This document shows, piece after piece, positions 11,161 to 55,900 of a stretch of 64,000 nt of DNA. The first letter of the stretch is position 1. Every line of letters starts with the position of its first letter. The stretch comes from an uncultured Gemmatimonadales bacterium. GTDB taxonomy: Bacteria > Gemmatimonadota > Gemmatimonadetes > Gemmatimonadales > GWC2-71-9. The position numbers were made by a program, and so were the translations under genes. The stretch is from contig CAVZZO010000001.1 of assembly GCA_963779755.1 (NCBI GenBank), forward strand, positions 636,044 through 700,043. The letters run 5' to 3'. The notes beneath the pieces were generated by a model that was not told the origin of the DNA, searched no databases, and saw nothing but the letters and a program-made list of their open reading frames with translations.

Positions 11161-11326
11161 GCTGCCCAGCCGCCCCGAGAGAAGGCAGGTAGAGCACAGA
11201 AGTATCGCATCAGACTCTGGCAAGTCTGCCGCGGGCGGGGAAGGTGGCTGGCGGGGATTCTTCATTTCAGTGACAGGCATGGCCGAGACACGGCTTCGGT
11301 CGAGAGGGGGATCCTGGCTCCAGTTC

Positions 11327-12238: not shown

Positions 12239-12284
12239 AATAAGCTCTGTCTCCGCGCCCGGCCCCTCTTGACAACGCCAGGCA

Positions 12285-37463: not shown

Positions 37464-37601
37464 CCTACGTGAACGGGGAACGTGCGGGCATAGGCAGACT
37501 TTTCGTCGGGGGTCATGGCGCGGCTCCGGGTGGAGGGAATCACAGGAGTCGCGGAAGGAGCTACGGGCCGCGCAGCGGCGTCAAGCGGGTATAGATGTCT
37601 A
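37464..37601 (-). mobile_element. Truncated 5' end of the IS110/IS1111-like element, abutting an attC core GTTAGGC (37602..37608)
   Basis: 138 nt are identical to 50608..50745, including the start of the transposase (MTPDEKSAYARTFPVHVG). It ends at the same ...GATGTCTA|GTTAGG junction as the full copy. Confidence 0.75.
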
Positions 37602-37622
37602 GTTAGGCGGCAATGGTCAGCT

Positions 37623-38942: not shown

Positions 38943-39006
38943 GCCTAACGCTCGGGTTCAGTGGCGGGCCGCGCAGCGGACCGTTCGCTGCCACCCGTTG
39001 TTAGCC
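38943..39006 (-). other. Short attC site (64 bp)
   Basis: GCCTAAC...GTTAGCC with an imperfect internal palindrome. The stop codon of the upstream (minus-strand) gene lies inside GGCTAAC. The next ORF starts 37 nt after the core. Confidence 0.5.
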
Positions 39007-41962: not shown

Positions 41963-42117
41963 GGGGGGAAATATAGGGTTTGTGTCGGTTCCTGTCCCGC
42001 TTAGGGCCGGAGAAAGAGCACGCCGTCATTGCGAGGGCGCGCAGCGCCCGTGGCAATCCCACCGCTTCCGGCGGGGAGCTCCCCACCTCACCGCTTGCTC
42101 CTCACGCTCACCGCCGA

Positions 42118-42898
42118 CCTAACCCCCTGTCCCCCTTCCCTGTTGGGAAGGGGGGACCGGGACGACCAGTTCGAAGAGAAGGGGGAACCGGGACGGCCGA
42201 TGTAAAAGAGGCTGTCACCCTGAGGCCGCGCCAGCGGCTGAAGGGGCCGAAGCTGGAGGATGGCTTCGGTCCCTTCGCTGCGCTCAGGGTGACAACCCCC
42301 TGTCCCCCTTCCCTGTTGGAAAGGGGGGACCGGGACGGGCGGTGCGAAAGGGCTGTCACCCTGAGGCCGCATCAGCGGCCGAAGGGGCCGAAGCTGGAGG
42401 ATGGCTTCGGTCCCTTCGCTGCGCTCAGGGTGACCTAACCCCCTGTCCCCCTTCCCTGTTGGGAAGGGGGGACCGGGACGACCAGTTCGAAGAGAAGGGG
42501 GAACCGGGACGGCCGGTGTAAAAGAGGCTGTCACCCTGAGGCCGCACGTGCGGCCGAAGGGGCCGAAGCTGGAGGATGGCTTCGGTCCCTTCGCTGCGCT
42601 CAGGGTGACCTAACCCCCTGTCCCCCTTCCCTGTTGGGAAGGGGGAACCGGGACGGCCGGTGCGAAAGGGCTGTCACCCTGAGGCCGCATCAGCGGCCGA
42701 AGGGGCCGAAGCTGAAGGACGGTTTCGGTCCCTTCGCTGCGCTCAGGGTGACCTAACCCCCTGTCCCCCTTCCCTGTTGGGAAGGGGGAACCGGGACGGC
42801 CGGTGTAAAAGAGGCTGTCACCCTGAGGCCGCACGTGCGGCCGAAGGGGCCGAAGTTGAAGGATGGTTTTCGGCCCCTTCGCTGCGCTCAGGGTGACA
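42118..42898. repeat. Tandem array 2: five units (174/142/174/145/145 bp) of the same composite hairpin repeat
   Basis: Unit boundaries are at 42118, 42293, 42435, 42609 and 42754. Short units lack the CCAGTTCGAAGAGAAGGGGGAACCGGGACG segment. The hairpins are the same as in array 1. Confidence 0.9.
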
Positions 42899-43039
42899 TT
42901 ACGCGCGCCGCCGGCGCTCATTGCCCGGGCGCGAGAGACACCCAGCGCCGCGATCCTTCACTTCAGTGATAAACCCGCCGAGACTCGGCTTCAGCCGAGG
43001 GAAAGATCCCCTTGCGTGCCGCGAAACCCTGCCATTAAG

Positions 43040-44458: not shown

Positions 44459-44656
44459 GCCGACGCCGACGCCATCCGGCCCGAGCACATGGTGGAGTTC
44501 TGGAAGGCCCTGGGCGGCGGCCGGCGCGATGCCGGGCTCGACGGCTCCCAGCGGCCCGCCGGCCAGCTCGCCATCGTGCCGGACACCACCCACTACTCGA
44601 TTCCTGTGGATCCGATGCTGCCGGAGGTCGTCGAGCGGTTCCTCGGAATCGGATAG
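44459..44656 (+). pseudogene. 3' fragment of an alpha/beta hydrolase paralog
   Basis: My own translation is ADADAIRPEHMVEFWKALGGGRRDAGLDGSQRPAGQLAIVPDTTHYSIPVDPMLPEVVERFLGIG*. It parallels the C-terminus of 34721..35644 (GDADMIRPEHAVSFFQLLGGG...LAILPNLTHYE). The 5' part is replaced by a repeat. Confidence 0.55.
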
Positions 44657-44686
44657 AAGGCGGTTGCCCTGGGTGAGAGCTTGGGG

Positions 44687-44799
44687 CAGTAACAGAGATG
44701 TGGATTTCGCGGTCGGTCGTCCGATGGTCCCGGCTCATCTCGCGCCGCGCCTTTGGGAGCGGAGCCCAAGCGCCCCGCCGGTGCAAGCAGCTGTTAGAC
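44687..44799 (-). other. Degenerate attC (last recognisable one of the contiguous array)
   Basis: On the minus strand it reads GTCTAACAG...CTGTTACTG. It lies 13 nt after the ParE/RelE stop codon. Internal arm pairing is weak. Confidence 0.4.
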
Positions 44800-44812
44800 G
44801 GACCGCACGATC

Positions 44813-45103
44813 CTATTCCACGGGGCCGATGCTCGCCCGACGCCCATGGATCACAGCCAACACGGTCACGACGTCGGCTTGTGGCCGATAGATGATGCGA
44901 TAGGATAGCTCGAGCAGCTCGCGAAGATCAGAATTGGAGCGTTCGGGAACTGGTCGGCCGACATTGGGAAAGTCTCGCAGTTGACCGGCCCGGCGGACGA
45001 GTCGGTGCACTGTGAGGTTGGCATATAGAGGAGAGGTCAGGGCAATGTAGGCCCGAATGGCCTCCAGATGGGCTTGGGCCGTCTCAGTCCAGAGGAGCCT
45101 CAC
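44813..45103 (-). CDS. ParE/RelE-family toxin
   Basis: 96 aa. LWTETAQAHLEAIRAYI...GRPVPE....LREL....YRIIYR......V.VLAVIHGRR. Confidence 0.8.
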   Translation of the reverse strand: MRLLWTETAQAHLEAIRAYIALTSPLYANLTVHRLVRRAGQLRDFPNVGRPVPERSNSDLRELLELSYRIIYRPQADVVTVLAVIHGRRASIGPVE

Positions 45104-45288
45104 GCCGGGAGACTAAACCGTTTCGCAACGTCCTCATGGGAAATCACTCGCCCGGCTTCGGCATCGGCCAGGCCGCTATCAATGGCCTGCTGAACGTGAA
45201 TCTCGTAGAGCAGGTCGTCCCACGAGGCTTGCTCGGCCATTCGTTCTACGATCTGGCGAGCGCGTTGCTTGATATCGGGAGCTGACAT
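45100..45288 (-). CDS. Cognate antitoxin (small helical)
   Basis: 62 aa with a 4-nt overlap with the toxin gene. ..LYEIHVQQAIDSGLADAEAGRVISHEDV. Confidence 0.65.
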   Translation of the reverse strand: MSAPDIKQRARQIVERMAEQASWDDLLYEIHVQQAIDSGLADAEAGRVISHEDVAKRFSLPA

Positions 45289-45353
45289 GAATCCCTCCGG
45301 GGTGCCTGAAATATGGCGTCCTTCAGGCCTGATGCCAAATCCGAGGGCGGGCC

Positions 45354-45452
45354 GCCTAACGGTTGGCGGTTGAGCGGTGATCCGCGCTCACAATATGCCA
45401 GCCATCCGACTGGTGCGCGGGCGCGGTTGACCGCTCCAAGCGCGTGTTAGGC
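45354..45452 (-). other. attC site (99 bp)
   Basis: GCCTAAC at 45354..45360 and GTTAGGC at 45446..45452. The arms are complementary with bulges (TTGAGCGGTGATCCGCGC / GCGCGGTTGACCGCTCCAA). The extra G falls in the arm next to the inverse core when read on the minus strand. Confidence 0.75.
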
Positions 45453-45480
45453 GGCGCGCACTGGCCGACAAGCACACAAC

Positions 45481-45858
45481 CTACCGAGCTGAGCCGTCTA
45501 GGCACGCTTGCAGCGGCGGTTCAGGTGATCCGAAGGCGATGCGAGCCCGCACATATTCGCGGTCCAAGAGGGTCGCTACCTCCAGCGTGGTTGAAGCCGT
45601 ACTGCGAAGATCTGCTATGGAAGGGTCGAGACGATAGTTGACTCGCTGTCGCGCGGCTGTCAACACGGATCTTACTTGGGTGAGGATGCCAGTGACCGTG
45701 TCTCGAACTGGCACGAAGGGGACGGAGACTTCCGCAAGGCGGAAATGCGTGATGTGGAGGTCCGCTCTTGGTAGAAAGAACTCGATCACAGCGCTCATGG
45801 TTGACGCCGTTACGGATGTCAGCTTGGATAGGTCTCTCTTGCCAAACAAGCTATCCAT
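45481..45858 (-). CDS. Hypothetical protein (third gene of protease cassette)
   Basis: 125-aa ORF with visibly lower G+C. It overlaps the protease 3' end by 40 nt. No recognisable motif. Confidence 0.45.
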   Translation of the reverse strand: MDSLFGKRDLSKLTSVTASTMSAVIEFFLPRADLHITHFRLAEVSVPFVPVRDTVTGILTQVRSVLTAARQRVNYRLDPSIADLRSTASTTLEVATLLDREYVRARIAFGSPEPPLQACLDGSAR

Positions 45859-46706
45859 GAGGTGTCGCGAGTTGTCGAGGAGGTATGCGGCGGAGCAGAG
45901 ATCCCTCCGGGCACTATCTGCCTGAGCAACGCGACGCGATCCTCGGGCTGCGCTGGGTGCAGCGTTAGCGATGACTGCGGGCGTGATGCGTTCGCGAAGA
46001 CCTCAGCGAGGGAACGGGAACTGACAGTGCTGTCCAGAAGTGCAGTGGCATACCGTACTGGGACGGCAAAATTCAGCGCTTGGCCGCCCTGGAGGTAGGC
46101 CGTCGAGATCGCAATGACCGCCCCAGAATCGTTGAGGACAGGGCCGCCGCTCGAGCCCGGGCTTATCGGCGCGGATATCTGCAGTAGCTGGCGGCCTTCG
46201 ACCACGCGATGTGCGCTGACAATCCCGTCCGTGACTGTTTGTGATAGACCGAGAGGGCTGCCAATAGCAACGATACGGCTGCCCACGGGAGGAAGCGTGG
46301 TGCTGGTGGATAACGTCGGCAGACTGGCTCCACGGATCCTGATAATCGCTACATCTGCGGTTGGATCAGCAGCGAGTGCGGTGACGTTGCTGAAACGCTC
46401 GCCTGTTGCCAGAAGGACGGCAGCCGATGTGGCACCAGCCATGACATGATAGTTGGTGACGACCACTCCATCCGGGACTATAATGAAACCGCTCCCTTGT
46501 CCTACTGTGTCACCTCGCGCATCAACAGCGAGGATTGTAACTGTGGCCGGAATGGCGCGCTTCGCAAGTTGGACGGTAGTTAGAGGGCGCTGGGCTGCTG
46601 CCATGGCGCTATAGGCGACAAGGCCGACGAGCACCGCAGTCGTTCTGATCGCTGCTTGCAAGTATGAACTCCGAAGCGGGTAGGCGCCACTCGGTAGTTG
46701 AGGCAA
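45819..46706 (-). CDS. Trypsin-like (S1/S1C) serine protease, secreted
   Basis: Hydrophobic N-terminus. Catalytic triad contexts TNYHV (H), DVAIIRI (D) and PGSSGGPV (S). No PDZ domain. The start is a non-ATG codon. Confidence 0.8.
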   Translation of the reverse strand: MPQLPSGAYPLRSSYLQAAIRTTAVLVGLVAYSAMAAAQRPLTTVQLAKRAIPATVTILAVDARGDTVGQGSGFIIVPDGVVVTNYHVMAGATSAAVLLATGERFSNVTALAADPTADVAIIRIRGASLPTLSTSTTLPPVGSRIVAIGSPLGLSQTVTDGIVSAHRVVEGRQLLQISAPISPGSSGGPVLNDSGAVIAISTAYLQGGQALNFAVPVRYATALLDSTVSSRSLAEVFANASRPQSSLTLHPAQPEDRVALLRQIVPGGISAPPHTSSTTRDTSWIACLARETYPS

Positions 46707-46736
46707 CGCCGCGTGGCATCGGGGCCAGAGCGAGTA

Positions 46737-47018
46737 TCAAATGCAGGAGAACACATGTTCCTCTCGAAAATCAATAGCAGATCCTGCAGTGAGCCCTTTG
46801 AAGTCAGCGGCGTTCCAGTCTTCGAAGCCAATTATGGTGCCGGAGATCGCTCCTCCGAGAACACGCACTACTTGAACGACGAGGATAACCCGCCCGTCCC
46901 GAAGGGAGACTTGGGCACCAACACGGATGGTCGAAGGGACTGCCGTACCGGGAGCCTGAAAGCCCCCGAACACGATAGATCTGTCTGCACGGGTGGCGAG
47001 TGCAAGCGGTTCATTCAT
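46737..47018 (-). CDS. Hypothetical small protein (first gene of protease cassette)
   Basis: 93 aa from MNEPLALATR (an alternative start lies at 47072). Beta-rich and lower in G+C. The stop is 30 nt before the protease start. Confidence 0.45.
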   Translation of the reverse strand: MNEPLALATRADRSIVFGGFQAPGTAVPSTIRVGAQVSLRDGRVILVVQVVRVLGGAISGTIIGFEDWNAADFKGLTAGSAIDFREEHVFSCI

Positions 47019-47263
47019 GGGTCGCTTCGACTCCGAAGACTTTAGAATGCGGCTGAATGCGATTTGGCACAATGCGGCTACTTGGCACCGGTACCCGACT
47101 GGGCTGTGAACCGGCGCGCGAGCTTCAAGTCCTTGTGCGCTTTATGCTTGCGTGTGATCTTGTGATTCCTTGCTCGGGCAATGCGGCAAAAAAGAGGCCG
47201 GAGGCCGTGCGCGCATTTGCCGCGCGGTGTTGGGTGACTGCGTTTCGTACGAAAGGCCGCGCC

Positions 47264-47367
47264 GCCTAACGAAATGCGTTTCAGCCGCGAAGGCGCGGCC
47301 CTAGCGCCCGGAGGGCTTTTTTGAGCGGGTGCGCCGCGCCTTCGCCGTCTGCAAACGCTTGTTAGGC
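47264..47367 (-). other. attC site (104 bp)
   Basis: GCCTAAC at 47264..47270 and GTTAGGC at 47361..47367. The arms GAAATGCGTTTCAGCCGCGAAGGCGCGG / CCGCGCCTTCGCCGTCTGCAAACGCTT are complementary. The brnA ORF reads into it. Confidence 0.75.
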
Positions 47368-47666
47368 CTCCCGGCCAGCCGGCTCCGGCGACGTTCGGTC
47401 TCGACCCGATCGGCAAGGTACACCTTGAGCAGACTCTGATAGGGGACATCCCGCTCGTTGGCGAGCAACTTGAGCTCGGTAAGCAGGGTATCGGGCAGCC
47501 GGACCGAAATGGCTGTGGACGAAGGCCGGAGATGGGGAAAGCGCATCACCCGTGCCTTCGACCAATCCACATATTCGGTCGAGTCATGCGTGGCCCAGAA
47601 GTCGCGCTCCTCGTCCTCAGTCCGGAAGGTCGGGATGTTCTTCAATGCTCGCTTGGGCTTGGGCAT
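47301..47666 (-). CDS. brnA: BrnA-family antitoxin (CopG/RHH-like)
   Basis: FRTEDEERDFWATHDSTEYVDW....ISVRLPDTLLTELKLLANERDVPYQSLLKVYLADRV. The C-terminal tail is read-through into the attC. Confidence 0.8.
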   Translation of the reverse strand: MPKPKRALKNIPTFRTEDEERDFWATHDSTEYVDWSKARVMRFPHLRPSSTAISVRLPDTLLTELKLLANERDVPYQSLLKVYLADRVETERRRSRLAGRPNKRLQTAKARRTRSKKPSGR

Positions 47667-47970
47667 ACTGGTGCCGCTCCTTCCGATTCATGTCCCGGGC
47701 CGCGATCACGCGAATCAGAGATCCGCGCACCGTGAAGACGAGGTAGAGCCTCCGGTTCGCGAGGGTCCGGCCGAGCGCTTGCCACCGGAGCTCGGTGCCG
47801 GAGTGCTTCGCATCGAATGCGGCGACCAGAGGTTCCTGAAAGAACGCCTGTTCGCACTCCCCCGGCTCCACGTTGTGGCGCGCCAGCACTTTGGGCGCGT
47901 TGCCGGCGTCCCATTCAAAGCCGGTGCAGCGGCCCAGAATCGCGTAGGCGTCCGGCGGCTCTCCCGTCAC
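47617..47970 (-). CDS. brnT: BrnT-family toxin (DUF497 ribonuclease)
   Basis: FEWDAGNAPKVLARHNVEPGECEQAF........SGTELRWQALGRT..RRLYLVFTVRGSLIRVIAARDMNRKER. Confidence 0.8.
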   Translation of the reverse strand: MTGEPPDAYAILGRCTGFEWDAGNAPKVLARHNVEPGECEQAFFQEPLVAAFDAKHSGTELRWQALGRTLANRRLYLVFTVRGSLIRVIAARDMNRKERHQYAQAQASIEEHPDLPD

Positions 47971-48028
47971 TCAGGAAGTATATGTGGGGTATATACGCCA
48001 GTCAACCGGTAGGCTCCGCCATCCGGAG

Positions 48029-48159
48029 GCCTAACGAAGTGCGCGTCAGCTGCAGCGCGATGCTTTAGGTCTTCACAAACTACGCTTCCTTAGCCGCGCC
48101 GCTAGGAACTCCGGATGATGCGACCGGCCCGCGCGACTGGCCTGCCAGCTGGACGCGCT
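48029..48159 (-). other. attC, larger part (interrupted; remaining 7 bp GTTAGGT at 50746..50752)
   Basis: It aligns with the 140-bp attC at 51958..52097 up to ...GACGCGCT. The expected TGTTAGG is then missing here, and GTTAGGT is found at 50746, immediately after the IS end. Confidence 0.7.
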
Positions 48160-48273
48160 CATGTACGCGGATCCTTTCGGGCTGCTTGCCCAGGATTGTT
48201 GTATCGAAACGGGGGATTGGCGAAAGGATAACCTGCTTCACCCTGCTGTTACAGCGGCAAGAGAGACAACCCG

Positions 48274-48615
48274 ATGCTGGGAGTAGCTGTGGGTCTCCTG
48301 GCCGTTGCAGGTGGGGCCGAACTGGCTGCTCCCAGGTTATTTGCCGCGGCCACCGCTGCTCTTCCTAAGGTACCGTTTGAGAAATTCCAGGACTGGGGAC
48401 GAAATGTTGTCCAATGGGGCCGTGGGGCAGCGGGGGCAATTCAGCGGGTTTCTGAAGTGACGGCCGAGCAGGCCTCTAAATTGGATCCACAGAAAGTGAA
48501 GATGGCTCGCGACTTCTACCAGAAAGCTGTTGATGCTGGCCGAGGGGGAGCCGCCGCACCTGAACGAGTAAAGCTGATGGAACGCATTTTAGACCTGCAG
48601 CAGAGAACCCATTAG
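48274..48615 (+). CDS. Hypothetical protein (N-terminal hydrophobic segment, helical C-terminus)
   Basis: 113-aa ORF, lower in G+C, oriented opposite to the array and located inside the attC insertion. Confidence 0.4.
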   Translation: MLGVAVGLLAVAGGAELAAPRLFAAATAALPKVPFEKFQDWGRNVVQWGRGAAGAIQRVSEVTAEQASKLDPQKVKMARDFYQKAVDAGRGGAAAPERVKLMERILDLQQRTH

Positions 48616-48640
48616 TGGCTCGGTCCGGTCTATTCGAGCA

Positions 48641-48910
48641 TTGCAACACGGAGGAAGAGCCATGCTGGAAGCAGCGGTCACACTTCGGCTTACGAATAGA
48701 TGCGAAACTGCGCGGAAGCTCGTGATTGAGCCATGGACCACCGAGTTTCGACTGCAACCTGGGCACACTTACGACTTGGTGATATCAGGGGACCTTGGCC
48801 TCCCCTTAGAGGTTGAGTTCGAGGACGACGAACTAACCGTATACACTTTCGATTCCGCCAATGCCTCCTTCAAGATTTCCGAAGGCGGGGCTGAACTTAA
48901 ACCACTGTAG
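48641..48910 (+). CDS. Hypothetical small beta-rich protein
   Basis: 89-aa ORF starting 25 nt after the previous one, with non-repetitive acidic composition (LEVEFEDDELTVYTFDSANASFKISEGG). Confidence 0.4.
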   Translation: MQHGGRAMLEAAVTLRLTNRCETARKLVIEPWTTEFRLQPGHTYDLVISGDLGLPLEVEFEDDELTVYTFDSANASFKISEGGAELKPL

Positions 48911-49394
48911 GAGCCCGGCCCTGTCTAGCCTGGGGCGCTCGGGGCGCCTCCGGGTTGTCGGGCCTGAACTCCGAGGGGTCGGGTCTAGTAGGAGCCTCGC
49001 GGGCTGCCGCGCGTGGCGGACCTCGGCCGGCGGAAAAGGAAAGTGGTGGGGGCCCCACGAGTTCAGCGGAACCCATCGGCTCCAGACCTGCCGCGAGCCG
49101 GCTCCCTCGTCGGGCGTCATGCGCCCACGGGAGCAGACGGGGTCACCCCACCGGCTCCAAGGTGCTACCCGGTCCTTCGATTGTCAAAGAGCGCCGCGTT
49201 CCGCGTGCCGGCGGGATCCTGGCACCACCCTCATAGGTCGTTGAGGCTCGGGGCCTCCCACATCTTCATGGATGCTCTCCGATCCGCGGCCGGGCGGCCA
49301 GCAACTCTGTGCGCGGAACTCACCGAAGACGCCGGCGGCTCAAGGCAAATAGAGGGCGGCCCGGCGCGCACGCGCGGCTCCCCCCGGTCTCCGA

Positions 49395-50660
49395 CTATTC
49401 GATCACCACCGGCTCTGCGTGATGCCGCTGGGTCTCCCAGCGCTCCCGGTCGAACGGCTGGCCCGACTGGAGCACGGCCAGGAGGAGCGGCACCAGCTTG
49501 CGGGCCACCGCGCAGACCGCCTTGGTCCGGAGCCCGCCATTGCGGGCCAGCAGGGCCTGGTAGACCCCGGTACAGCCCCCGGGGCTGGCACCAGCGGCCG
49601 CCGAGCAGAAAGAGTTGGCGGCGCAGCAACGGCCGGCCCCGTTTGGACTGCTTGCGCCGGCCCTGCACCGTGCCGCTGGAGCGCTCGACCAGATTCATGC
49701 CTGCGAGTTTCAGCACCTGGCGGGGATGAGTGAAGCGCTCCGGAGCGCCCAGCTCGGCCACGATCGTGGCCGCACAGGTGGCGCTCACCTCGGGAATGGT
49801 GGTCAGCGCCTTGGCCGCGGGGCACTGCTCCACCGAGCGCGGCGATCTGCTGGTCCACCTCCGCGAGTTGCGCCCGCAGCAGGTCCCAGCGGGCCAGCAG
49901 CTGCTGGATCTCCAGCGCCGCTCGGGAGCGGCGCCGGCCAGGGCGACACTGGTGCGGGCGGACTCGCGCAGGACGTGGAGCTGCCCTGGGCTCACGTGGC
50001 CCCGCGAGACGGACCGCGCCAGGCGAGTCACCGCGGCCGGGGCGGCCGCCAGGAAGTCCTGCGGCAGCGGCCAGCGCGCCAGCAGGGCGCGCGGCGTGGG
50101 CTTGCGCACCTGCGAGAAGTGCGTCAGGAACTCGGGCCAGGCCAGGTCGAGCAGGCTCTGGAGACGGTTCTTGAACCGGGTTTCCTCGACGGTGAGCCGA
50201 TGACGGTGGGTGGTGAGCAGCCGCAGCTCGAGATACGGGGGCTGCAGCGCCGGATATCCCACGAAGATCCCCAGGCTCACCAGCTTGCAGATCTCGGCGG
50301 CATCCTTCGCGTCCGTCTTGTTGGGGCTGTTATCCTCCAGTTCCTTGGCCCGCTTGGTGTGGGCCGGCAGGATATTGACCAGCGCATAGCCGCGCGCCCG
50401 CAGGCACTCGGCAAACGTGAAGCCGTGATGGCCGGCGAACTCCAGCCCCACCAGCATCTGGCCGGGCCGGATGCCGGGAAACCAGGCCGTCAACTGCGCG
50501 CGGCGGCCTCGAAGCCCGCGCGGCTCACCGGCACTCGGACCGGCTTCGTGCGGCGCCCATCGGGGCCCTGAGCAACCAGCACGTGGACCCGCTTCGCGGT
50601 ATCCACGCCTACGTGAACGGGGAACGTGCGGGCATAGGCAGACTTTTCGTCGGGGGTCAT
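49395..50660 (-). pseudogene. IS110-family (IS1111-like) transposase, multiple frameshifts
   Basis: The N-terminus is FPVHVGVDTAKRVHVLV (DEDD domain). The middle is LVGLEFAGHHG...NILPAHTKRAKEL. The C-terminal domain is TIPEVSATCAATIVAELGAPERFTHPRQVLKLAGMNLVERSSG..RRKQSKRGRPLLRR. The true end (GLYQALLARNGGLRTKAVCAVARKLVPLLLAVLQSGQPFDRERW...VVIE*) is in a third frame. At least 3 shifts are present. Confidence 0.8.
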
Positions 50661-50746
50661 GGCGCGGCTCCGGGTGGAGGGAATCACAGGAGTCGCGGAA
50701 GGAGCTACGGGCCGCGCAGCGGCGTCAAGCGGGTATAGATGTCTAG

Positions 50747-51487
50747 TTAGGTAGCACCACGAATCAGACGGCGGCCGTGAGGAGTGAGTTCCGCGTGTCT
50801 GACGCTCCCAATCTGGTAGTCCCCGGGACCTCCTGTGGTAATGATTCCGAGGTCTTTCAAGCCGCGCAAGATCAGATCAAGTCGCGCAACCGGGATGCCC
50901 GTCACCTCAAGCACCGTGGTCGTGTGAAGTCGGTACTGGTCTGGCGTCAGGGTGCGGAACTGGGCAAGTACCGCAGCCACCTCGGCGGCCGAGTCCACAT
51001 CTGGGAGTAGCGACGGAGCAAGGGCGATGTATGTGCCAGGCACGAGGCGCGTTCGCGCGATTCCGACAGCGTGATTCAAGTCTGGATCAATACGAATGAA
51101 GCCGAAATCGCGAAGATCCTCCGCTGCCTCCAAGTACTCATGCGGCGAAACATCCAAATCGGTAATGGCATCCTCTGCTTCAGCAAACTGGAACAGCTGG
51201 CTGGCCTCGCGATAGAGGCAGTAGGCCAGCAACCGCAGGGGCGTACCAGAAAGGCGGACGAATGGAACTTGAATTGCTTCGAGCGCGGTCACGCGCTCTT
51301 CGAGACTGCCAACCCGGACACCGAGTTTCGATACCTGCTCATTCGCTACGCCGTAGCCGCCCAGGGCGGCAAGACGCGCTACCAAGGACGCCACGCCCGA
51401 AATCGGCTCGACAACCAAGGCCACGCCAGTGAGTGTCCACGCAGCGATGGTCGGCCAATCGAGGCTCGAATCCTTTGCTGAGGTCAT
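50747..51487 (-). CDS. Hypothetical cassette protein (N-terminal TM helix, coiled segment, possible C-terminal wHTH)
   Basis: The start MTSAKDSSLDW lies 15 nt after the attC core GTTAGTA. The stop TAA is inside the inverse core ACCTAAC. The 395-aa track ORF is read-through across the attC. Confidence 0.6.
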   Translation of the reverse strand: MTSAKDSSLDWPTIAAWTLTGVALVVEPISGVASLVARLAALGGYGVANEQVSKLGVRVGSLEERVTALEAIQVPFVRLSGTPLRLLAYCLYREASQLFQFAEAEDAITDLDVSPHEYLEAAEDLRDFGFIRIDPDLNHAVGIARTRLVPGTYIALAPSLLPDVDSAAEVAAVLAQFRTLTPDQYRLHTTTVLEVTGIPVARLDLILRGLKDLGIITTGGPGDYQIGSVRHAELTPHGRRLIRGAT

Positions 51488-51502
51488 CCCGCCTCGTAGT
51501 GC

Positions 51503-51642
51503 TACTAACGAAGTGCGTTTCAGCGGCGGCGCGATGCCCCGCTCCCTCACATCCGACGCTTCCTTACCGCGACCGCTAGATGTCCCAGAAATGCACCAGC
51601 GGGCTGCAGCACCGTGCCCGCCGCTGCAAACGCTTGTTAGCT
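51503..51642 (-). other. attC site (140-bp family)
   Basis: TACTAAC at 51503..51509 and GTTAGCT at 51636..51642. The arms GAAGTGCGTTTCAGCGGCGGCGCG / CCGCCGCTGCAAACGCTT are complementary, with one extra base in the right arm. Confidence 0.8.
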
Positions 51643-51957
51643 GCCGGCCGCAATGACAATTTCGGGTGCGATGACGCTGCCGGTATGTGCGGAGCCCCCG
51701 CGCCGGGAGACCGGGCCGCCAACCGGGAGCCTCGGCGGGGCGGGAGAACGCTGGACGCCTCCGAACCTGCTCGGCGCACCTTCCTTGCCATGGAGCGCCC
51801 CGCGGAGAGAAACCTTGGGCGGCATCGCGGAGCCTTCCAGGCGTCCCGCGCAAGGAGGCCGGTGCCGCCTCACCGCTACCAACCAACTGCAGAGTTCCGG
51901 CGGCACCACCAGGCGCCCACCAAGAGATCAGCACTGGGCGGCCCGACTGGCGCGTGC

Positions 51958-52097
51958 AGCTAACGAAGTGCGCGTGTGCTGCAGCGCGATCCCTCAGGAT
52001 TTCACAAACCTACGCTTCCACAGCCGCACCGCTAGGAGGCCCGAGTGGGGGCCGGCGGCCCGCGCGACCGGCCTGCAGAACGACGCGCTTGTTAGGC
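51958..52097 (-). other. attC site (140-bp family)
   Basis: AGCTAAC at 51958..51964 and GTTAGGC at 52091..52097, with the same family architecture. Confidence 0.8.
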
Positions 52098-52104
52098 CCC
52101 GCGG

Positions 52105-53175
52105 ATTCATATACTAAGTGCAACAACGGAAGGCGACGAAAGCGGTGATCTGACAGCAAGTAGACTTCTCTGTCCGCCAAGACAAGGAAGCCGACCATGA
52201 ACTACCGCCAGATCACCGCCGCTGAACGGTACACCCTCGGCCTGCTTCGCCGACAGGGGCTGACGGCGGCAGCCATCGCGCGCCTCCTCGGTCGCCACCG
52301 CAGCACCATCGGCCGCGAGGTCCGGCGCAACCGCACCCACCACGACGGGGGCTACCGCCCCCAGCTCGCCGACTGGTACGCGCGGGGCCGGCGGAGCCAC
52401 TCGCGCCGCAACACCCGGTTCACCGCCACGGATTGGGCGGAGGTGGAACGCCTGGTGCGCGAGGACTGGAGCCCCGAACAGATCGCCGGCCGCCTCGCCG
52501 CGGACGGACACCTCGCCATCAGTCACGAGACGATCTATCGGTACGTCTGGGCGGACCGCGCGGACGGCGGCACGCTCTACCAGCACCTCCGCGGCGCCCG
52601 CAAGCAGCGCCGCAAACGGTACGGGCGCTACGACAGCCGGGGCCGCCTGGCCGGGAAGCGGATGATCACGGAGCGGCCTGCGATCATCGAAGGCCGCAGC
52701 CAGGTCGGTCACTGGGAAGGCGACACCGTCCTCGGCGCGGGACAGGCCGGCCCCTGCGTGCTGACGCTGGTGGAACGGAAGACCGGCTATCTGATGCTCG
52801 GCCAACTCCACCAGCGGACGACCACCGCCGTCACGCGCCGGGCGACCCAGCTGATTCATCGGGAAGCTCGCCCGGTGCGCACCATCACCGTGGACAACGG
52901 CACCGAGTTCCATGACTACGCGGCGATCGAACGGGAGACCGCCACGCGCTTCTACTTCGCCACGCCGCACCACAGCTGGGAGCGCGGAACCAACGAGAAC
53001 ACCAACGGCCTGCTGCGGCAGTACCTCCCGAAAGGCCACTCTATGGCGCACCTCACCCAGGCCGCGTGTGATCGCCTCGCCCGCAAACTCAACCGCCGAC
53101 CCCGGAAGCGCCTCCTCTACCGCACCCCGGAGGAATGCTATGCACGATGAGGCTCAGTGTTGCACTACAAACTTG
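52105..53175 (+). mobile_element. IS30-family insertion sequence (ends approximate)
   Basis: A single transposase ORF is flanked by imperfect inverted repeats containing TA(A/G)GTGCAACA (left at about 52115, right at about 53167). Confidence 0.7.
52197..53150 (+). CDS. IS30-family transposase
   Basis: N-terminal HTH (ERYTLGLLRRQGLTAAAIARLLGRHRSTIGREVRRN). The DDE core contains HWEGDTV, ITVDNGTEFH and SWERGTNENTNGLLRQY. Confidence 0.9.
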   Translation: MNYRQITAAERYTLGLLRRQGLTAAAIARLLGRHRSTIGREVRRNRTHHDGGYRPQLADWYARGRRSHSRRNTRFTATDWAEVERLVREDWSPEQIAGRLAADGHLAISHETIYRYVWADRADGGTLYQHLRGARKQRRKRYGRYDSRGRLAGKRMITERPAIIEGRSQVGHWEGDTVLGAGQAGPCVLTLVERKTGYLMLGQLHQRTTTAVTRRATQLIHREARPVRTITVDNGTEFHDYAAIERETATRFYFATPHHSWERGTNENTNGLLRQYLPKGHSMAHLTQAACDRLARKLNRRPRKRLLYRTPEECYAR

Positions 53176-53186
53176 ATATCAGACGG

Positions 53187-53756
53187 CTATTGAGAGCGAC
53201 ATTGGAGGCCCTCGCCCGTCAGCGCTCGGAGGACCTTCAGCATGCGCTGATCATCACGCGAGCAAAAGACCTCGGGATTGTCCGCTCCGGCCGCACCACT
53301 TGCTCCGTCGAATCGCCATTCTAGAAGGAAGGAGCGGCCATCATCCACTAGGAAGATGGAAGGTTCCTGCGGCGCGGGCGGTAGCTCGCGTAAGCCTGCG
53401 CGCTGTGCCGCAGCAATTCGACTCTCCCAGTTGGCCGAGTCGGGCAATGCCTGATGGAACGGTACGTGCGCTGTATTCGTTGCGTACTCCTCGGCATGCC
53501 AACGCCGTCCCTCCAGCAGGAACCGGTACAGGCGGATGCCAGTGAGGCCGAAGCCATCCCACAGGCGAATCTCCGCGTCTACACCAGGGCGCGAATCCGC
53601 AATACTGGGTAGAGCTAGGTTGCGAGCGAGTTCTGTGGCATACGGCGAGAGTTCCGCAGCCCCTGCCCGCGTCGAGCGCGGACTCGGTTGCTGCCCAGCG
53701 GCGACCGCGGTTGGCAGCGCCAGGAGCCCGAATATGAAACTCAGTCGGATCGCCAT
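53187..53756 (-). CDS. Secreted hypothetical cassette protein
   Basis: The ATG lies 8 nt after the attC core GTTAGGC. Signal peptide MAIRLSFIFGLLALPTAVAA. 189 aa with no motif I recognise. Confidence 0.65.
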   Translation of the reverse strand: MAIRLSFIFGLLALPTAVAAGQQPSPRSTRAGAAELSPYATELARNLALPSIADSRPGVDAEIRLWDGFGLTGIRLYRFLLEGRRWHAEEYATNTAHVPFHQALPDSANWESRIAAAQRAGLRELPPAPQEPSIFLVDDGRSFLLEWRFDGASGAAGADNPEVFCSRDDQRMLKVLRALTGEGLQCRSQ

Positions 53757-53764
53757 ATCAGTCC

Positions 53765-53906
53765 GCCTAACGGTCTGCGTTTCAGCGGCGGCGCGATGCC
53801 CCGCTCCCTCATAATCCTACGCTTCCTTACCGCGACCGCTAGATGTCCGAGCAATGCACCAGCGGCCTGCAGCACCGTGCCCGGCCGCTGCAAACGCTTG
53901 TTAGCT
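53765..53906 (-). other. attC site (140-bp family)
   Basis: GCCTAAC at 53765..53771 and GTTAGCT at 53900..53906. The arms GGTCTGCGTTTCAGCGGCGGCGCG / CCGGCCGCTGCAAACGCTT are complementary. Confidence 0.8.
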
Positions 53907-54219
53907 GCCGGCCGCAATGACATTCTCGGTTGCGATGACGCTGCCGGCAGGTGCGGAGTCCCCACCCCGGGAGGCCCGGCCGCCCCCTCGGAGCTCCGGC
54001 GGGGCGGAAGATCGCTGGACGCTTGTCCACCGGGAACGACGCTGACCCTGCCCCGACCGCCCCGCGGGGAGGGGCCCCGGGCGGCATGGCGGAGCCTGCC
54101 AGACGACCCGCGCAAGGAGGCCGGTGCCGCCTCACCTCCGCCAACCAGCTGAGGAACTCCGGCGGCACCACCAGGAGCCCACCAAAAGATCAGCACTGGG
54201 AGGCCCGGCTGGCGCGTGC

Positions 54220-54361
54220 AGCTAACGGTCTGCGTTTCAGCGGCGGCGCGATGCCCCGCTCCCTCATAATCCTACGCTTCCTTACCGCGACCGCTAGATG
54301 TCCGAGCAATGCACCAGCGGCCTGCAGCACCGTGCCCGGCCGCTGCAAACGCTTGTTAGCT
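54220..54361 (-). other. attC site (140-bp family), duplicate of 53765..53906
   Basis: AGCTAAC at 54220..54226 and GTTAGCT at 54355..54361. Confidence 0.8.
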
Positions 54362-54674
54362 GCCGGCCGCAATGACATTCTCGGTTGCGATGACGCTGCC
54401 GGCAGGTGCGGAGTCCCCACCCCGGGAGGCCCGGCCGCCCCCTCGGAGCTCCGGCGGGGCGGAAGATCGCTGGACGCTTGTCCACCGGGAACGACGCTGA
54501 CCCTGCCCCGACCGCCCCGCGGGGAGGGGCCCCGGGCGGCATGGCGGAGCCTGCCAGACGACCCGCGCAAGGAGGCCGGTGCCGCCTCACCTCCGCCAAC
54601 CAGCTGAGGAACTCCGGCGGCACCACCAGGAGCCCACCAAAAGATCAGCACTGGGAGGCCCGGCTGGCGCGTGC

Positions 54675-54763
54675 AGCTAACAAATATTGGACCTGCGTAC
54701 CTCCCATTGAACTCCCGACCAACCAGAAATTCATCTTACGGTCCGCAGTCTAATTCCACAACA
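54675..54763 (-). other. Putative attI, located immediately downstream of the intI stop codon
   Basis: On the minus strand it reads TGA-TGTTGTGGAATTAGACTGCGGACCGTAAGATGAATTTCTGG...GTACGCAGGTCCAATATTT-GTTAGCT. It ends in a core-type GTTRRRY exactly where cassette 1 begins, and it has no partner inverse-core arm. Three paralogous relics exist elsewhere in the window. Confidence 0.6.
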
Positions 54764-55741
54764 TCACCCCGTCTGGCCCAGCAGGTCCGCGGGACTCCGT
54801 ACCCCCAGGCCGCCCCGGTTCAGGACATGGGTGTAGATCATCGTGGTCGAGACATCCCGGTGGCCCAGGAGCTCCTGTACGGTCCGGATGTCGTAGCCCG
54901 CCTCCAGCAGATGCGTGGCAAAGCTGTGCCGCAGGGTGTGACAGGTCGCCCGTTTGCCGATACCGCTGGCCCGCACCGCCTCCGCCATGGCCCGCTGCAC
55001 TGCGGTCTCGTGGTAGTGATGCCGGCGCAGCTGCCCCGAGGCCGCGTGACGATGCCGCCGCCGAGCCGGAAAAACCCACTGCCAGGGCCAGGAGCATCCC
55101 GCTCGCGGATACTTCCGCTCCAGGCCATCGGGGAGCTCGACCCAGCCCGCCCCCTCAGCCAGATCCCGCCGGTGCCGCTCCCGCACCCGCTCCAGGTGGA
55201 GATGCAACGGCTGACGCACCGACTGCGCCAGGACGGTGACCCGATCCTTGGCGCCTTTGCCTCGGCGCAGCCGTATCTCCCCCCGTTCCAGGTCCAGATC
55301 CTTGACCCGCAAGGTGAGGCACTCAAGCAGCCGCAGGCCACTGCCATAGAGCAGGGCGGCTACCAGCGCCGAGACGCCACGCAGGTGTGCCAGTACGCTC
55401 CGGACTTCTCCCGGCGTCAGCACGACCGGCAGGCGCACCGGAGCCTTCGGCCGGGGAATGCTCCCCATGTCCACCAATGGCCGCTCCAGGACCTCGGAGA
55501 AAAGGAACGAGAGGGCCGCCTGCGCCTGCGCCTGAGTTGAGGCGGAAACGTGCCGCTCGATGCGCAGATCGGCCAGGAATTGGAGTACTTCTTCCCGCCC
55601 CAGTTCCGCCGGAGGACGGAGGCCGTGAAACCGCACAAACCGCCGAACCCAGCCCACGTAGGCCTCCTCGGTCCGCGGGCTGAAGTGCCGTAGCCGCAGG
55701 TTGAGCCGCAGGGCCTGCAGCAGTTTCGGTTTGGACTGCAT
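54764..55741 (-). CDS. intI: Integron integrase IntI (tyrosine recombinase)
   Basis: [23 protein letters not shown] is present. The IntI-specific insertion [24 protein letters not shown] compares with [20 protein letters not shown] in IntI1. Catalytic region [39 protein letters not shown]. The ATG is at 55741, with an alternative GTG at 55765. Confidence 0.92.
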
Positions 55742-55900
55742 GAGAGTATCCCCGCGGAAATCCACAAGCTTGATCCGCGACGCCTTTCCACCCGTACCCC
55801 GCCAATGCCGAGAGGACCGAAAACGCCCGCGAACTCCTCCCTTGTGTATCGAACAGTTGTTTTATACGTTTGTTCTCCACGCCCCCGGGAGCTCCGACCA

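What the first reader, a model, noticed from the sequence alone, without database searches (positions are those of the whole stretch)
48029..50752. IS110/IS1111-like element inserted exactly at an attC core, twice at the same position
The attC at 48029 matches its 140-bp family up to ...GACGCGCT (48159) and then breaks. The missing GTTAGGT core is at 50746..50752, right after the element end ...GGGTATAGATGTCTA. A 138-nt truncated copy of the same end (37464..37601, identical sequence) abuts another core, GTTAGGC, at 37602. Two independent insertions at the same position relative to the attC core fit the known behaviour of the IS1111-attC group, which targets integron recombination sites. The transposase (49395..50660) has at least 3 frameshifts.
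Basis: partly seen in the sequence, partly recalled or inferred. Interest (0 to 1): 0.65.

Follow-up and report, generated by a model that had tools for sequence, protein, structure and literature searches.

The report
Toxin-tip-carrying IS110 element splitting an integron attC
A 2.6-kb mobile element with an RNA-guided (IS110-type) recombinase has landed inside an integron recombination site, and it carries a spare tip for an Rhs toxin plus a likely antidote gene, which suggests that bacteria can swap toxin tips with a dedicated recombinase.

Summary
An integron attC is split at 48159|50746 by a 2586-bp insert. A 138-nt copy of the same end abuts a second attC core at 37602.

- The recombinase belongs to the IS110 family but is not in the IS1111-attC group. 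It shares 25% identity over 79 aa with ISKpn4, I found no subterminal inverted repeats, it is 422 aa long, and it sits in the opposite orientation in the attC.
- The "frameshifts" are probably assembly errors. A 99.25%-identical contig has an intact gene, and the window has similar 1-nt indels in other genes and attCs.

The insert is larger than a plain IS. Its far end encodes ..DPFGL, the end-of-core motif of Rhs toxins. That is followed by a DUF4951 toxin tip and a small immunity-like gene. Next come a conserved RNA module and the recombinase.

Two short RNA segments covary with the two element ends, with no exceptions found across about 60 relatives. So the cargo lies inside the recombination unit.

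In about 120 related Gemmatimonadota loci the same unit mostly sits at the 3' end of rhs genes. There it fuses in frame (26 of 27 junctions) and forms tandem arrays. Five or six independent copies sit in attC sites at one position. The target guide is unresolved.

The parts
48029..48159 (.). Larger part of the split attC. Read in cassette sense (minus strand) it runs from the L'' box GCGCGTC to the far core ..CGTTAGGC.
   Evidence: It aligns with intact family members until ...GACGCGCT. Joined to 50746-50752 it folds like the intact neighbours.
48160..50745 (-). The whole inserted unit, 2586 bp in the window and 2594 bp in the cleaner contig L001. Order: far end, toxin tip, immunity-like gene, RNA module, recombinase, near end.
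   Evidence: It is flanked by the two halves of one attC. The same architecture and end motifs occur in about 60 relatives. The RNA guides covary with both ends.
48160..48191 (-). Far end of the element (right end in recombinase orientation): GGGCAAGCAGCCCGAAAGGATCCGCGTACATG. On the plus strand it encodes M-Y-A-D-P-F-G-L.
   Evidence: The motif CC(C/A)AA(N)GGATC(N)+9 nt ends the unit in the relatives. Its last bases AC[A/G]TG covary with RNA motif B.
48161..48615 (+). Orphan Rhs C-terminal toxin module: a DPFGL leader plus a DUF4951 domain. It is 151 aa in L001. The window lacks one base near 48249, so its uninterrupted ORF is 48274-48615.
   Evidence: Pfam DUF4951, E = 3.7e-8. The domain is always at the extreme C-terminus of proteins of 113-2646 aa. 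The long ones carry RHS repeats. P0123 and P0125 show ..GGLNLYGFANGDPVNFSDPFGL followed by this domain.
48662..48910 (+). Small ORF of 82 aa directly after the toxin module. It is the presumed cognate immunity gene.
   Evidence: Inferred from position only. No family hit was found. The same gene pair recurs in L033. Other units have a different small ORF in this place, for example L002 5320-5664.
49199..49296 (-). Donor-binding loop of the element's non-coding RNA: outer stem 49279-49287/49211-49221, motif A 49257-49272, distal hairpin 49243-49257, motif B 49225-49242.
   Evidence: Covariance model R1 scores 83.8 bits here, and this is the only strong hit in the window. R1 gave 92 hits across 100 related loci, all on the recombinase strand. 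The consensus fold has compensatory changes. The guides covary with the ends.
49297..49394 (-). First domain of the conserved non-coding region, just after the recombinase stop. It has a closing stem, internal loops and a distal hairpin. It is a candidate target-binding loop.
   Evidence: It is conserved and its closing stem covaries across relatives, by my reading of the alignments. No clean match to the flanks was found, so its role is inferred.
49395..50660 (-). IS110-family DEDD recombinase gene. It is 422 aa in L001. The window copy has 4 indels relative to L001.
   Evidence: (P0001, 97% identical, intact). D20, E74, D117, D120 and S329 are invariant in 30 homologues.
50661..50745 (-). 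Near end of the element (left end), 85 nt. The terminus reads (T)AGACATCTATACCCGCTTGAC in recombinase orientation.
   Evidence: The terminus A[G/C]AC[A/C/G]TCTAT is conserved in relatives. ACATCT pairs with RNA motif A, AGATGT.
50746..50752 (.). Core GTTAGGT of the split attC. Read in cassette sense it is ACCTAAC, the R'' box.
37464..37601 (-). Truncated second copy: the left end plus the first 18 codons of the recombinase.
   Evidence: It is identical to 50608-50745.
37602..37608 (.). Core GTTAGGC of a second attC. It lies at the same distance and orientation from the element end.
   Evidence: Cassette-like minus-strand ORFs and a further attC-like site at 38943-39006 lie nearby.
54764..55765 (-). 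Integron integrase intI of the array that holds the split attC.
   Evidence: TIGR02249, 425 bits against a cut-off of 265. Pfam Phage_integrase and SAM_4.

Best explanation
The insert at 48160-50745 is one mobile unit of a Gemmatimonadota lineage of IS110-family elements. These are DEDD recombinases that work with a bridge/seek-type RNA. This lineage carries cargo.

In recombinase orientation the unit reads: left end, recombinase, non-coding RNA module, and then on the other strand an immunity-like gene and an Rhs C-terminal toxin module. The first codons of that module, (T/N/M)(F/Y)(T/S)DPFGL, form the right end of the element.

SHOWN
- The unit's architecture and its ends.
- Two short RNA segments in one internal loop covary with the two ends. 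One segment is complementary to the left end. The other is identical to the last bases of the right end plus AG. So the RNA reads the joined right-end/left-end junction, and the cargo lies inside the recombination unit.
- In relatives the right end abuts the end of an rhs core, in frame. The rhs gene therefore continues into the element-encoded tip. Units also stack head to tail.

INFERRED
- The element excises as a circle and the recombinase-RNA complex inserts it at a 2-nt core. That core is AG or AC in recombinase orientation, which is CT or GT in rhs sense.
- At an rhs gene this gives the toxin a new tip and immunity gene. The previous tip is pushed downstream as an orphan.
- In this window the same kind of unit instead landed in the 2-nt spacer between the R'' and L'' boxes of an integron attC: ACCTAAC-T|unit|AGCGCGTC in cassette sense, with CT present at both junctions on the plus strand.
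- That splits and presumably disables the attC. The toxin tip is left without an Rhs body and antisense to the cassettes.
- attC is a recurrent secondary landing site for this family, with 5-6 independent events. How it is recognised is not resolved.

The copy is probably active rather than decayed.
For: Boundaries. The two attC halves flank the whole 2.6 kb here, and also in L010 and L096, where the far core ..CGTTAGGC follows about 130 nt later.

Family-wide anatomy. There are 65 units with both ends, 2.2-3.6 kb long.

Cargo.
- 53 distinct tip ORFs fall into at least 35 unrelated families. Nearly all start ..DPFGL.
- The DUF4951 domain is always C-terminal in proteins of up to 2646 aa, and the long ones carry RHS repeats.

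Fusion with rhs.
- 26 of 27 distinct junctions read ..YDxxTGRFTQEDPIGLAGGLNLYGFAGGDPV|TFTDPFGL.. without a stop.
- In L002 an ORF of at least 866 aa with RHS repeats runs through the element end.

RNA.
- The region after the recombinase stop is conserved.
- The fold has compensatory changes.
- The covariance model gave 92 hits across 100 related loci, all on the recombinase strand, and one hit in the window.

Guide covariation.
- AGATGT with ACATCT in 40 units, AGAGGT with ACCTCT in 17, and AGACGT with ACGTCT in 1. No crossed cases.
- GTGAG with ..CGTG in 36 units and ATGAG with ..CATG in 8. No crossed cases.
- The second guide follows the unit's own far end, not the flank next to the left end.

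Recombinase. Pfam, NCBIfam and PDB all point to IS110 and IS621. The catalytic residues are invariant.

Intact sister copy. L001 and P0001.

attC recurrence. The left-end flank is CCTAAC+1 nt in L001/window, in the truncated copy at 37602, and in L010, L046 and L096.
Against: - No transposition, circle junction or RNA has been observed. Everything rests on comparative sequence.
- The part of the RNA that should read the target was not found. Elements with near-identical RNA sit both in attC (L010, L096) and next to a DPFGL sequence (L093).
- The attC and rhs targets share little beyond the core and a G+C-rich right side. RNA-guided choice of attC is therefore unproven.
- Many related loci may be orthologous rather than independent insertions, which inflates the counts.
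- The immunity role of the 82-aa ORF and the toxicity of DUF4951 are untested.
- One base at the attC junction does not match the intact family.
- Rfam has no matching family. The RNA assignment therefore rests on my own model.
Confidence: 0.72

Rival explanations
1. One reading: an ordinary member of the IS1111-attC group (ISPst6, ISKpn4, ISPa21 and relatives) that specialises in attC sites. The extra 1.2 kb would be incidental.
For: - It lies in an attC between the same two boxes as ISKpn4.
- It occurs twice at the same position.
- The non-coding region is downstream of the recombinase, and the order of the two guide segments is the one described for IS1111 seekRNAs in PMC11187229.
Against: - Only 25% identity over 79 aa to ISKpn4 Tnp, whereas group members share more than 74% with each other.
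- It matches IS621 better.
- No 11-13-bp subterminal inverted repeat.
- It is 422 aa, not about 340 aa.
- Its orientation in the attC is the opposite.
- Most relatives are at rhs genes, not attC.
Confidence: 0.04
2. Two separate things lie side by side. A roughly 1.7-kb IS110 element (recombinase, RNA and left end) habitually inserts next to pre-existing orphan Rhs tip modules. On this view the tip module is target, not cargo.
For: - The left end is usually preceded by another DPFGL sequence (41 of 67 distinct flanks). The conserved DPFGL-coding DNA could simply be the preferred target.
- IS110 elements are usually about 1.5 kb.
Against: - In three full attC insertions the attC halves enclose the tip module too.
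- RNA motif B covaries with the far end beyond the cargo (ATG against GTG, 8 and 36 cases, none crossed). It does not covary with the flank beside the left end.
- Cargo differs between units while both ends stay constant.
Confidence: 0.08
3. The window copy is a dead relic. The frameshifts are real and the element has been decaying in the array.
For: - There are at least 4 frame changes in the window.
- A second, truncated copy lies at 37464-37601.
- P0074, a 408-aa product that is 89% identical over 72% of the query, exists in public records.
Against: - L001 is 99.25% identical and has an intact gene.
- The window's indels occur at a similar density outside the gene. They are mostly a missing C or G and also break an unrelated gene.
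- Both ends and both guides still match each other.
Confidence: 0.12
4. attC is not a by-product. Some sublineages carry a target guide reprogrammed to attC, so integrons would be a second programmed home for toxin-tip units.
For: - Five or six independent attC insertions share the same position and orientation. They come from three sublineages that are 64-70% identical to each other.
- The attC-side flanks share GGTGC-NN-CCTAAC-N|AG-CGC(G/C).
- Natural retargeting of seekRNAs is documented in PMC11187229.
Against: - No RNA segment tracks the attC flanks.
- L093 has essentially the same RNA as L096 and L010 but lies next to a DPFGL sequence.
- The toxin tip is useless in an attC, because it has no Rhs body and is antisense to the cassettes.
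Confidence: 0.3

Closest known systems
IS1111-attC group (ISPst6, ISKpn4, ISPa21, ISPa25; Tetu & Holmes 2008, Post & Hall 2009, seekRNA work in PMC11187229)
   Same: - DEDD recombinase element found in integron attC sites at one position and in one orientation.
- Inserted between the R'' and L'' boxes. I checked this for ISKpn4 in the qacL attC.
- Non-coding RNA region downstream of the recombinase.
- The segment complementary to one strand precedes the segment identical to it.
   Different: - The recombinase is only remotely related (25% over 79 aa).
- No subterminal inverted repeats.
- The orientation in the attC is opposite.
- It carries 1.2 kb of cargo.
- attC is a minority target for the family.
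IS110-group bridge-RNA recombinases (IS621, ISCro4; PMC11208160)
   Same: - Best solved-structure match (8wt6, E = 2e-21).
- NCBIfam 'IS110 family RNA-guided transposase'.
- An internal-loop RNA whose two sides read the two halves of the joined ends around a 2-nt core.
- CT lies at both junctions on the plus strand, and CT is also the IS621 core.
   Different: - The RNA lies downstream of the gene, not in a long left end.
- The order of the two guide segments is reversed.
- No Rfam family matches.
- The protein is about 90 aa longer.
- It carries cargo.
Orphan rhs-CT/immunity arrays and tip displacement in polymorphic toxin loci (PMC3150448, PMC3967940, PMC3482391)
   Same: - Tip-plus-immunity pairs begin with the DPxGL-coding end of the core.
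- They are stacked downstream of a full rhs gene.
- A new tip fuses in frame to a constant body.
   Different: - Those arrays are explained by homologous recombination at the conserved core end. I found no mention of a dedicated recombinase in those papers.
- Here each tip module travels with its own recombinase, its own RNA and defined ends.
IS110 elements that have grown by taking up cargo (preprint 10.64898/2026.08.14.744561, title and abstract start only)
   Same: IS110-family elements larger than the canonical 1.5 kb that carry passenger genes.
   Different: - That work concerns antimicrobial resistance cargo and does not contain the word Rhs.
- I could not read the full text.
Group IIC-attC introns (PMC3001079)
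   Same: Another mobile element class that homes to attC sites in one orientation.
   Different: They are retroelements with no recombinase and no cargo, and they use a different mechanism.

Membership tests
IS110 family (DEDD recombinase elements) | N-terminal RuvC-like DEDD domain plus C-terminal Transposase_20 domain with a catalytic Ser | tested here: met
   PF01548 with E = 4.7e-24 and PF02371 with E = 4.3e-16. NF033542 at 197 bits against a cut-off of 140. D20, E74, D117, D120 and S329 are invariant in 30 homologues. IS621 8wt6 matches at E = 2e-21.
IS110 family (DEDD recombinase elements) | Site- and orientation-specific insertion without long target duplication, with a short core present at both junctions | tested here: met
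   GCG-CT|CATG.. and ..ATGT-CT|AGTTAGG on the plus strand. The position and orientation are the same in 5-6 attC events and at rhs core ends.
IS110 family (DEDD recombinase elements) | Element-encoded bridge/seek RNA that reads the donor ends | tested here: met
   There is a conserved structured region and exception-free guide-end covariation. Transcription itself was not tested.
IS1111 subgroup | Subterminal inverted repeats of about 11-13 bp, with 7-nt and 3-nt terminal extensions | tested here: not met
   No inverted repeat links 48160-48200 with 50700-50745 among the pairs reported. ISKpn4 shows GGACTCTCCCC/GGGGAGAGTCC plainly.
IS1111 subgroup | Long non-coding region downstream of the transposase that holds the RNA | tested here: met
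   The left end is 85 nt. The conserved RNA module starts right after the stop codon.
IS1111 subgroup | Transposase of about 340 aa that clusters with IS1111 relatives | tested here: inconclusive
   The protein is 422 aa. It matches ISKpn4 weakly (29.6 bits) and IS621 better (79.8 bits). No tree with ISfinder entries was built.
IS1111-attC group | Close relationship to ISPst6, ISKpn4 and ISPa21 (more than 74% identity within the group, supplement of PMC11187229) | tested here: not met
   25% identity over 79 aa, E = 1e-4.
IS1111-attC group | Insertion in attC at a fixed position and orientation | tested here: inconclusive
   It lies in the same inter-box spacer (R''-L'') as ISKpn4, but the recombinase points the other way relative to the cassette. 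The published target logo could not be read.
Integron attC site (the target) | Imperfect palindrome with RYYYAAC...GTTRRRY cores and paired L boxes, in an array next to intI | tested here: met
   The joined site folds like its intact neighbours. It aligns with them. intI passes TIGR02249. No dedicated attC scoring tool was available.
Rhs/YD polymorphic toxin C-terminal module (the cargo) | Starts at the DPxGL end-of-core motif, has a variable C-terminal domain found at the tips of RHS-repeat proteins, and is followed by a small immunity gene | tested here: met
   The ORF begins MYADPFGL. DUF4951 is always C-terminal, and the long carriers have RHS repeats. P0123 and P0125 confirm the arrangement. 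Toxicity and immunity were not tested.

The most novel reading that the evidence does not exclude
A widespread lineage of RNA-guided IS110-type recombinases acts as self-mobilising Rhs toxin-tip and immunity cassettes.
- Each unit carries one tip.
- The unit inserts at the last codons of an rhs core, so the toxin is re-armed in frame.
- The old tip is left behind as an orphan.
- This would give a dedicated, programmable mechanism for polymorphic-toxin diversification.
- The same units also enter integron attC sites, which links the two cassette systems.
Probability: 0.55. Interest if true: 0.85.

Novelty: new variant of a known kind. Interest (0 to 1): 0.7.

Why it matters
**Toxin-tip exchange.** How polymorphic toxins such as Rhs exchange their tips and build orphan arrays has so far been attributed to homologous recombination at the conserved core end. 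Here each tip and immunity pair travels with its own recombinase, its own guide RNA and defined ends, and it fuses in frame to rhs cores. That makes tip swapping a testable, site-specific reaction.

**IS110 biology.**
- It adds a natural cargo-carrying lineage to the bridge/seek-RNA recombinases.
- Its RNA layout mixes IS110 and IS1111 traits.

**Integron biology.**
- A second, unrelated DEDD lineage has converged on the same inter-box spacer of attC sites as the IS1111-attC group.
- Insertion there should freeze the affected cassette junction.

**Annotation.** The apparent pseudogene is most likely an assembly artefact.

Tried and rejected
**Rfam.** A permissive scan of 36-56 kb found nothing.

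**Finding relatives.**
- The first genome scan, with the single protein, found no relatives. The scan with an alignment worked.
- P0074 could not be located on a contig.

**Subterminal inverted repeats.** None was found.

**Homologues of the cargo.**
- In the fetched loci only L033 carries them.
- The word-indexed protein search gave just 5 short hits. The exhaustive search was needed.

**Target guide.**
- I tried a k-mer match of the non-coding region against both flanks, class-wise alignment, a mutual-information scan and reading the loops by eye.
- The donor guides come out cleanly. No target guide does.
- Isolated matches are within chance, given about 35 units examined. Examples are L001 GGTAGCACC against the flank GGTGCTACC, L050 ACAATCCG against the rhs side, and GCGCTGG against CC|AGCGC in L096 and L087.

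**IntI-mediated capture of the unit.** Rejected, because the junction is not at the G|TT crossover of the core.

**Literature.**
- The Tetu & Holmes 2008 paper and the 2026 cargo preprint are not held.
- Five searches found no paper linking IS110-type recombinases to Rhs tips.

Full report
**Setting**

The right third of the window is an integron.
- The gene at 54764-55765 (minus strand) passes the integron-integrase model TIGR02249 at 425 bits, against a cut-off of 265.
- To its left lie attC-like sites at 54220, 53765, 51958, 51503, 48029, 47264 and 45354.
- The cassette genes are on the minus strand, so the integrase is co-oriented with the cassettes.
- Further cassette-like genes and an attC-like site lie at 37.6-39.6 kb.

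**The observation**

- The site starting at 48029 aligns with the intact member at 51958-52097 up to ...GACGCGCT. It then diverges.
- The missing core GTTAGGT sits at 50746-50752, right after ...GGGTATAGATGTCTA.
- Joined, the two pieces fold like the intact neighbours. The cores pair, then GCGCGTC with GACGCGC, then CAGCTG with CAGCTG. Energy is -30 to -34 kcal/mol.
- Window 37464-37601 is identical to 50608-50745 and abuts GTTAGGC.

All of this is confirmed. One base differs from expectation. The intact family has ...GCGCT-T-GTTAGG, whereas the split site has ...GCGCT|insert|A-GTTAGG.

**The recombinase and the frameshifts**

- The minus-strand frame 50660->49395 needs at least four frame changes.
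- The repaired 422-aa protein has the IS110 DEDD domain and the Transposase_20 domain. It also passes NCBIfam "IS110 family RNA-guided transposase".
- A public contig, L001, carries the same 10-kb stretch at 99.25% identity with an intact 422-aa gene.
- The window differs from L001 by 26 small indels, nearly all a missing C or G. They are spread over attCs, non-coding DNA, the recombinase gene and an unrelated trypsin-like gene. That gene is whole in L001 and split in the window.
- The indel density inside the recombinase gene is no higher than outside it.

I therefore read the frameshifts as assembly errors, not decay.

**What the extra 1.2 kb is**

Between the attC break (48159) and the recombinase stop (49395) lie two plus-strand ORFs and about 480 nt of non-coding DNA.
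- The first bases of the insert, C ATG TAC GCG GAT CCT TTC GGG CTG, encode M-Y-A-D-P-F-G-L. DPxGL is the motif that ends the Rhs core.
- The ORF continues into a DUF4951 domain.
- An exhaustive search shows that this domain always lies at the very C-terminus of proteins from 113 to 2646 aa. The long carriers have RHS repeats.
- Short homologues read ...GGLNLYGFANGDPVNFSDPFGL followed by the domain.

So 48161-48615 is an orphan Rhs toxin tip. The 82-aa ORF at 48662-48910 sits where an immunity gene is expected. It has no family hit.

**Relatives**

Scans of genome and metagenome collections gave 119 related loci, almost all from Gemmatimonadota.
- The left end, A[G/C]AC[A/C/G]TCTAT..., lies 56-390 nt upstream of the gene.
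- The other end..CC(C/A)AA(N)GGATC(N)+9 nt, lies 2.2-3.6 kb away.
- Read on the opposite strand, almost every unit starts with (T/N/M)(F/Y)(T/S)DPFGL and a 150-185-aa ORF.
- There are 53 distinct tip ORFs in at least 35 unrelated families.
- The recombinase and the ends are conserved. The cargo is not.

**Where the relatives sit**

| Flank | Count | Class |
|---|---|---|
| Beyond the DPFGL end (56 distinct) | 27 | End of an rhs core |
| | 8 | Left end of another unit (tandem) |
| | 3 | attC |
| | 4 | A third recurrent sequence, AGGGCGTTTTTGCGG.. |
| Beside the left end (67 distinct) | 41 | Another DPFGL sequence |
| | 4 | CCTAAC plus one base (attC) |

- At 26 of 27 distinct rhs junctions the frame runs from ...YDxxTGRFTQEDPIGLAGGLNLYGFAGGDPV straight into the unit's TFTDPFGL and tip.
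- In L002 an ORF of more than 866 aa with RHS repeats crosses the element end.

This is the arrangement expected if each arriving unit gives the rhs gene a new tip and pushes the older one downstream.

**The RNA**

The 100-330 nt after the recombinase stop are conserved.
- One module folds as an outer stem (GGACC/GGTCC), a short inner stem, a large internal loop and a distal hairpin. At one hairpin pair, both sides have changed in 10 of 26 sequences.
- The 5' side of the loop holds CCCATGA-AGATGT-GAC. The 3' side holds GACGAnC-T[G/A]TGAG-nGTGG.
- AGA[T/G/C]GT is the reverse complement of positions 3-8 of the left end, AC[A/C/G]TCT. The pairings are 40, 17 and 1 units, with no crossed case.
- [G/A]TGAG equals the last three bases of the far end plus AG. 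The counts are 36 and 8 units, with no crossed case.
- This second segment follows the unit's own far end, not the flank next to the left end.
- A mutual-information scan recovers both signals.
- A covariance model of the module finds one strong hit in the window (49199-49296, minus strand, 83.8 bits). It gave 92 hits across 100 related loci, all on the recombinase strand. Some of those are 55-60%-identical relatives that were not used to build the model.

This is the signature of a donor-binding loop that reads the joined ends around a 2-nt core. It also shows that the toxin module lies inside the recombination unit.

**The attC insertions**

- In L010 and L096 the unit is flanked by GGCCTAAC-T or GCCTAAC-C on one side. 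On the other side is AGCGCCTGCAGCGG..., followed about 130 nt later by ..CGTTAGGC. That is a 140-nt attC of the same family, split at the same base.
- L046 shows GCCTAAC-A at its left end.
- With the window/L001 copy and the truncated copy at 37602, that makes five independent events. L092 is a possible sixth. They come from three sublineages.
- In cassette sense the insertion lies in the 2-nt spacer between R'' (ACCTAAC) and L'' (GCGCGTC).
- On the plus strand, CT lies at both junctions (GCG-CT|CATG... and ...ATGT-CT|AGTTAGG).

**Comparison with the IS1111-attC group**

I took the ISKpn4 transposase sequence from the supplement of PMC11187229.
- Its alignment with P0001 gives 25% identity over 79 aa.
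- In a Salmonella plasmid, ISKpn4 lies in the qacL attC as CATCTAACAATTCA|IS|TTCAAGCCGAC. That is also between R'' and L'', but with the transposase antisense to the cassette. It shows clear subterminal repeats GGACTCTCCCC/GGGGAGAGTCC.
- The window element has no such repeats, points the other way, and matches IS621 better.
- It shares two traits with IS1111-type elements: the downstream RNA region and the order of the two guide segments.

It is therefore a different lineage that has converged on the same part of attC.

**What remains open**

- I could not find the part of the RNA that reads the target.
- The first domain after the stop codon has the right architecture, and its closing stem covaries. 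Its loops do not track the flanks.
- Elements with near-identical RNA lie both in attC and next to DPFGL sequences.
- Whether attC is a programmed or a tolerated target is undecided.
- No experiment or read-level evidence for movement was available.

**Literature**

- I found no paper that links IS110-type recombinases to Rhs tips.
- Reviews of polymorphic toxins explain tip exchange by recombination with stand-alone cassettes and name no dedicated enzyme.
- A 2026 preprint reports cargo-carrying IS110 elements for resistance genes. It does not mention Rhs.

**Verdict**

- The more interesting result is the cargo, and the family-wide link between an RNA-guided recombinase and Rhs toxin tips.

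Noticed in passing
window 44459-54678 compared with L001: There are 26 small indels, mostly a missing C or G, scattered across genes, attCs and non-coding DNA. The trypsin-like gene at 45469-46746 is split in the window but is 425 aa in L001. The window looks like an indel-prone long-read assembly.
   Followed up: yes
window ~52107-53180 (tnp 52197-53150, +): An IS30-family element (HTH_38 plus rve) with short inverted ends (AGTGCAACA/TGTTGCACT). It is inserted about 10 nt after the GTTAGGC of attC 51958-52097. It is also present in L001.
   Followed up: partly
window 53767-54221, 54222-54676 and 51503-51957: Two 100%-identical 455-bp cassettes without a convincing ORF lie next to attI. A third copy is about 84% identical.
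   Followed up: no
window 54680-55765: The integron integrase is co-oriented with the cassette genes (the inverted-integrase layout). The attI junction reads ...CCAATATTT|GTTAGCTGC on the minus strand.
   Followed up: partly
window 47301-47970 and 44813-45103 (minus strand): Toxin-antitoxin cassettes: a BrnT/CopG-like pair and a ParE-like gene. The labels come from the Pfam annotation of the orthologous L001 genes.
   Followed up: no
window 11238-12260 and 42116-42920: Arrays of 141-175-bp tandem repeats built from two palindromic modules (CTGTCACCCTGAGG...CTCAGGGTGAC and CCCCTTCCC..GGGAAGGGGG). Solitary copies lie elsewhere in the window.
   Followed up: no
L042, L051, L066, L067, L080 (flanks of the unit): A third recurrent insertion site: ..NGTT|unit|AGGGCGTTTTTGCGGCA(N4-5)GGGGNGTTTTGCGG. 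The conserved, internally repeated right flank looks like the end of some other mobile element.
   Followed up: partly
L049, L052-L054, L059, L062, L064, L076-L078, L095, L097: The same rhs arrays hold units of a second recombinase lineage, about 40% identical to P0001. Their left end is ACACCCCTATTG..GATAGGGGTC, and they abut the same DPFGL-type ends.
   Followed up: no
L058, L060, L088, L089 (left-end flank): The flank GGTGC(C/T)GGCGTGGCG|AAACATC resembles the attC-side flank (GATTCGTGGTGCTACCTAACT) but lacks the CCTAAC core. The left end there starts AA instead of AG.
   Followed up: no
window 49176-49196 (minus strand) and all relatives: A strongly conserved box, CGGCGCTCTTTGACAA, lies just after the donor loop. 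It contains a TTGACA hexamer. It is followed by a third conserved stem, GGTGGGGTGACC...GGCCCCCACCAC (49139-49152 and 49043-49056). Its role is unknown.
   Followed up: no
window 48160-48163: The far-end variant ..ACATG (most relatives have ..ACGTG) creates an ATG at the very first codon of the orphan tip. This could allow stand-alone translation. The RNA guide carries the matching A.
   Followed up: partly
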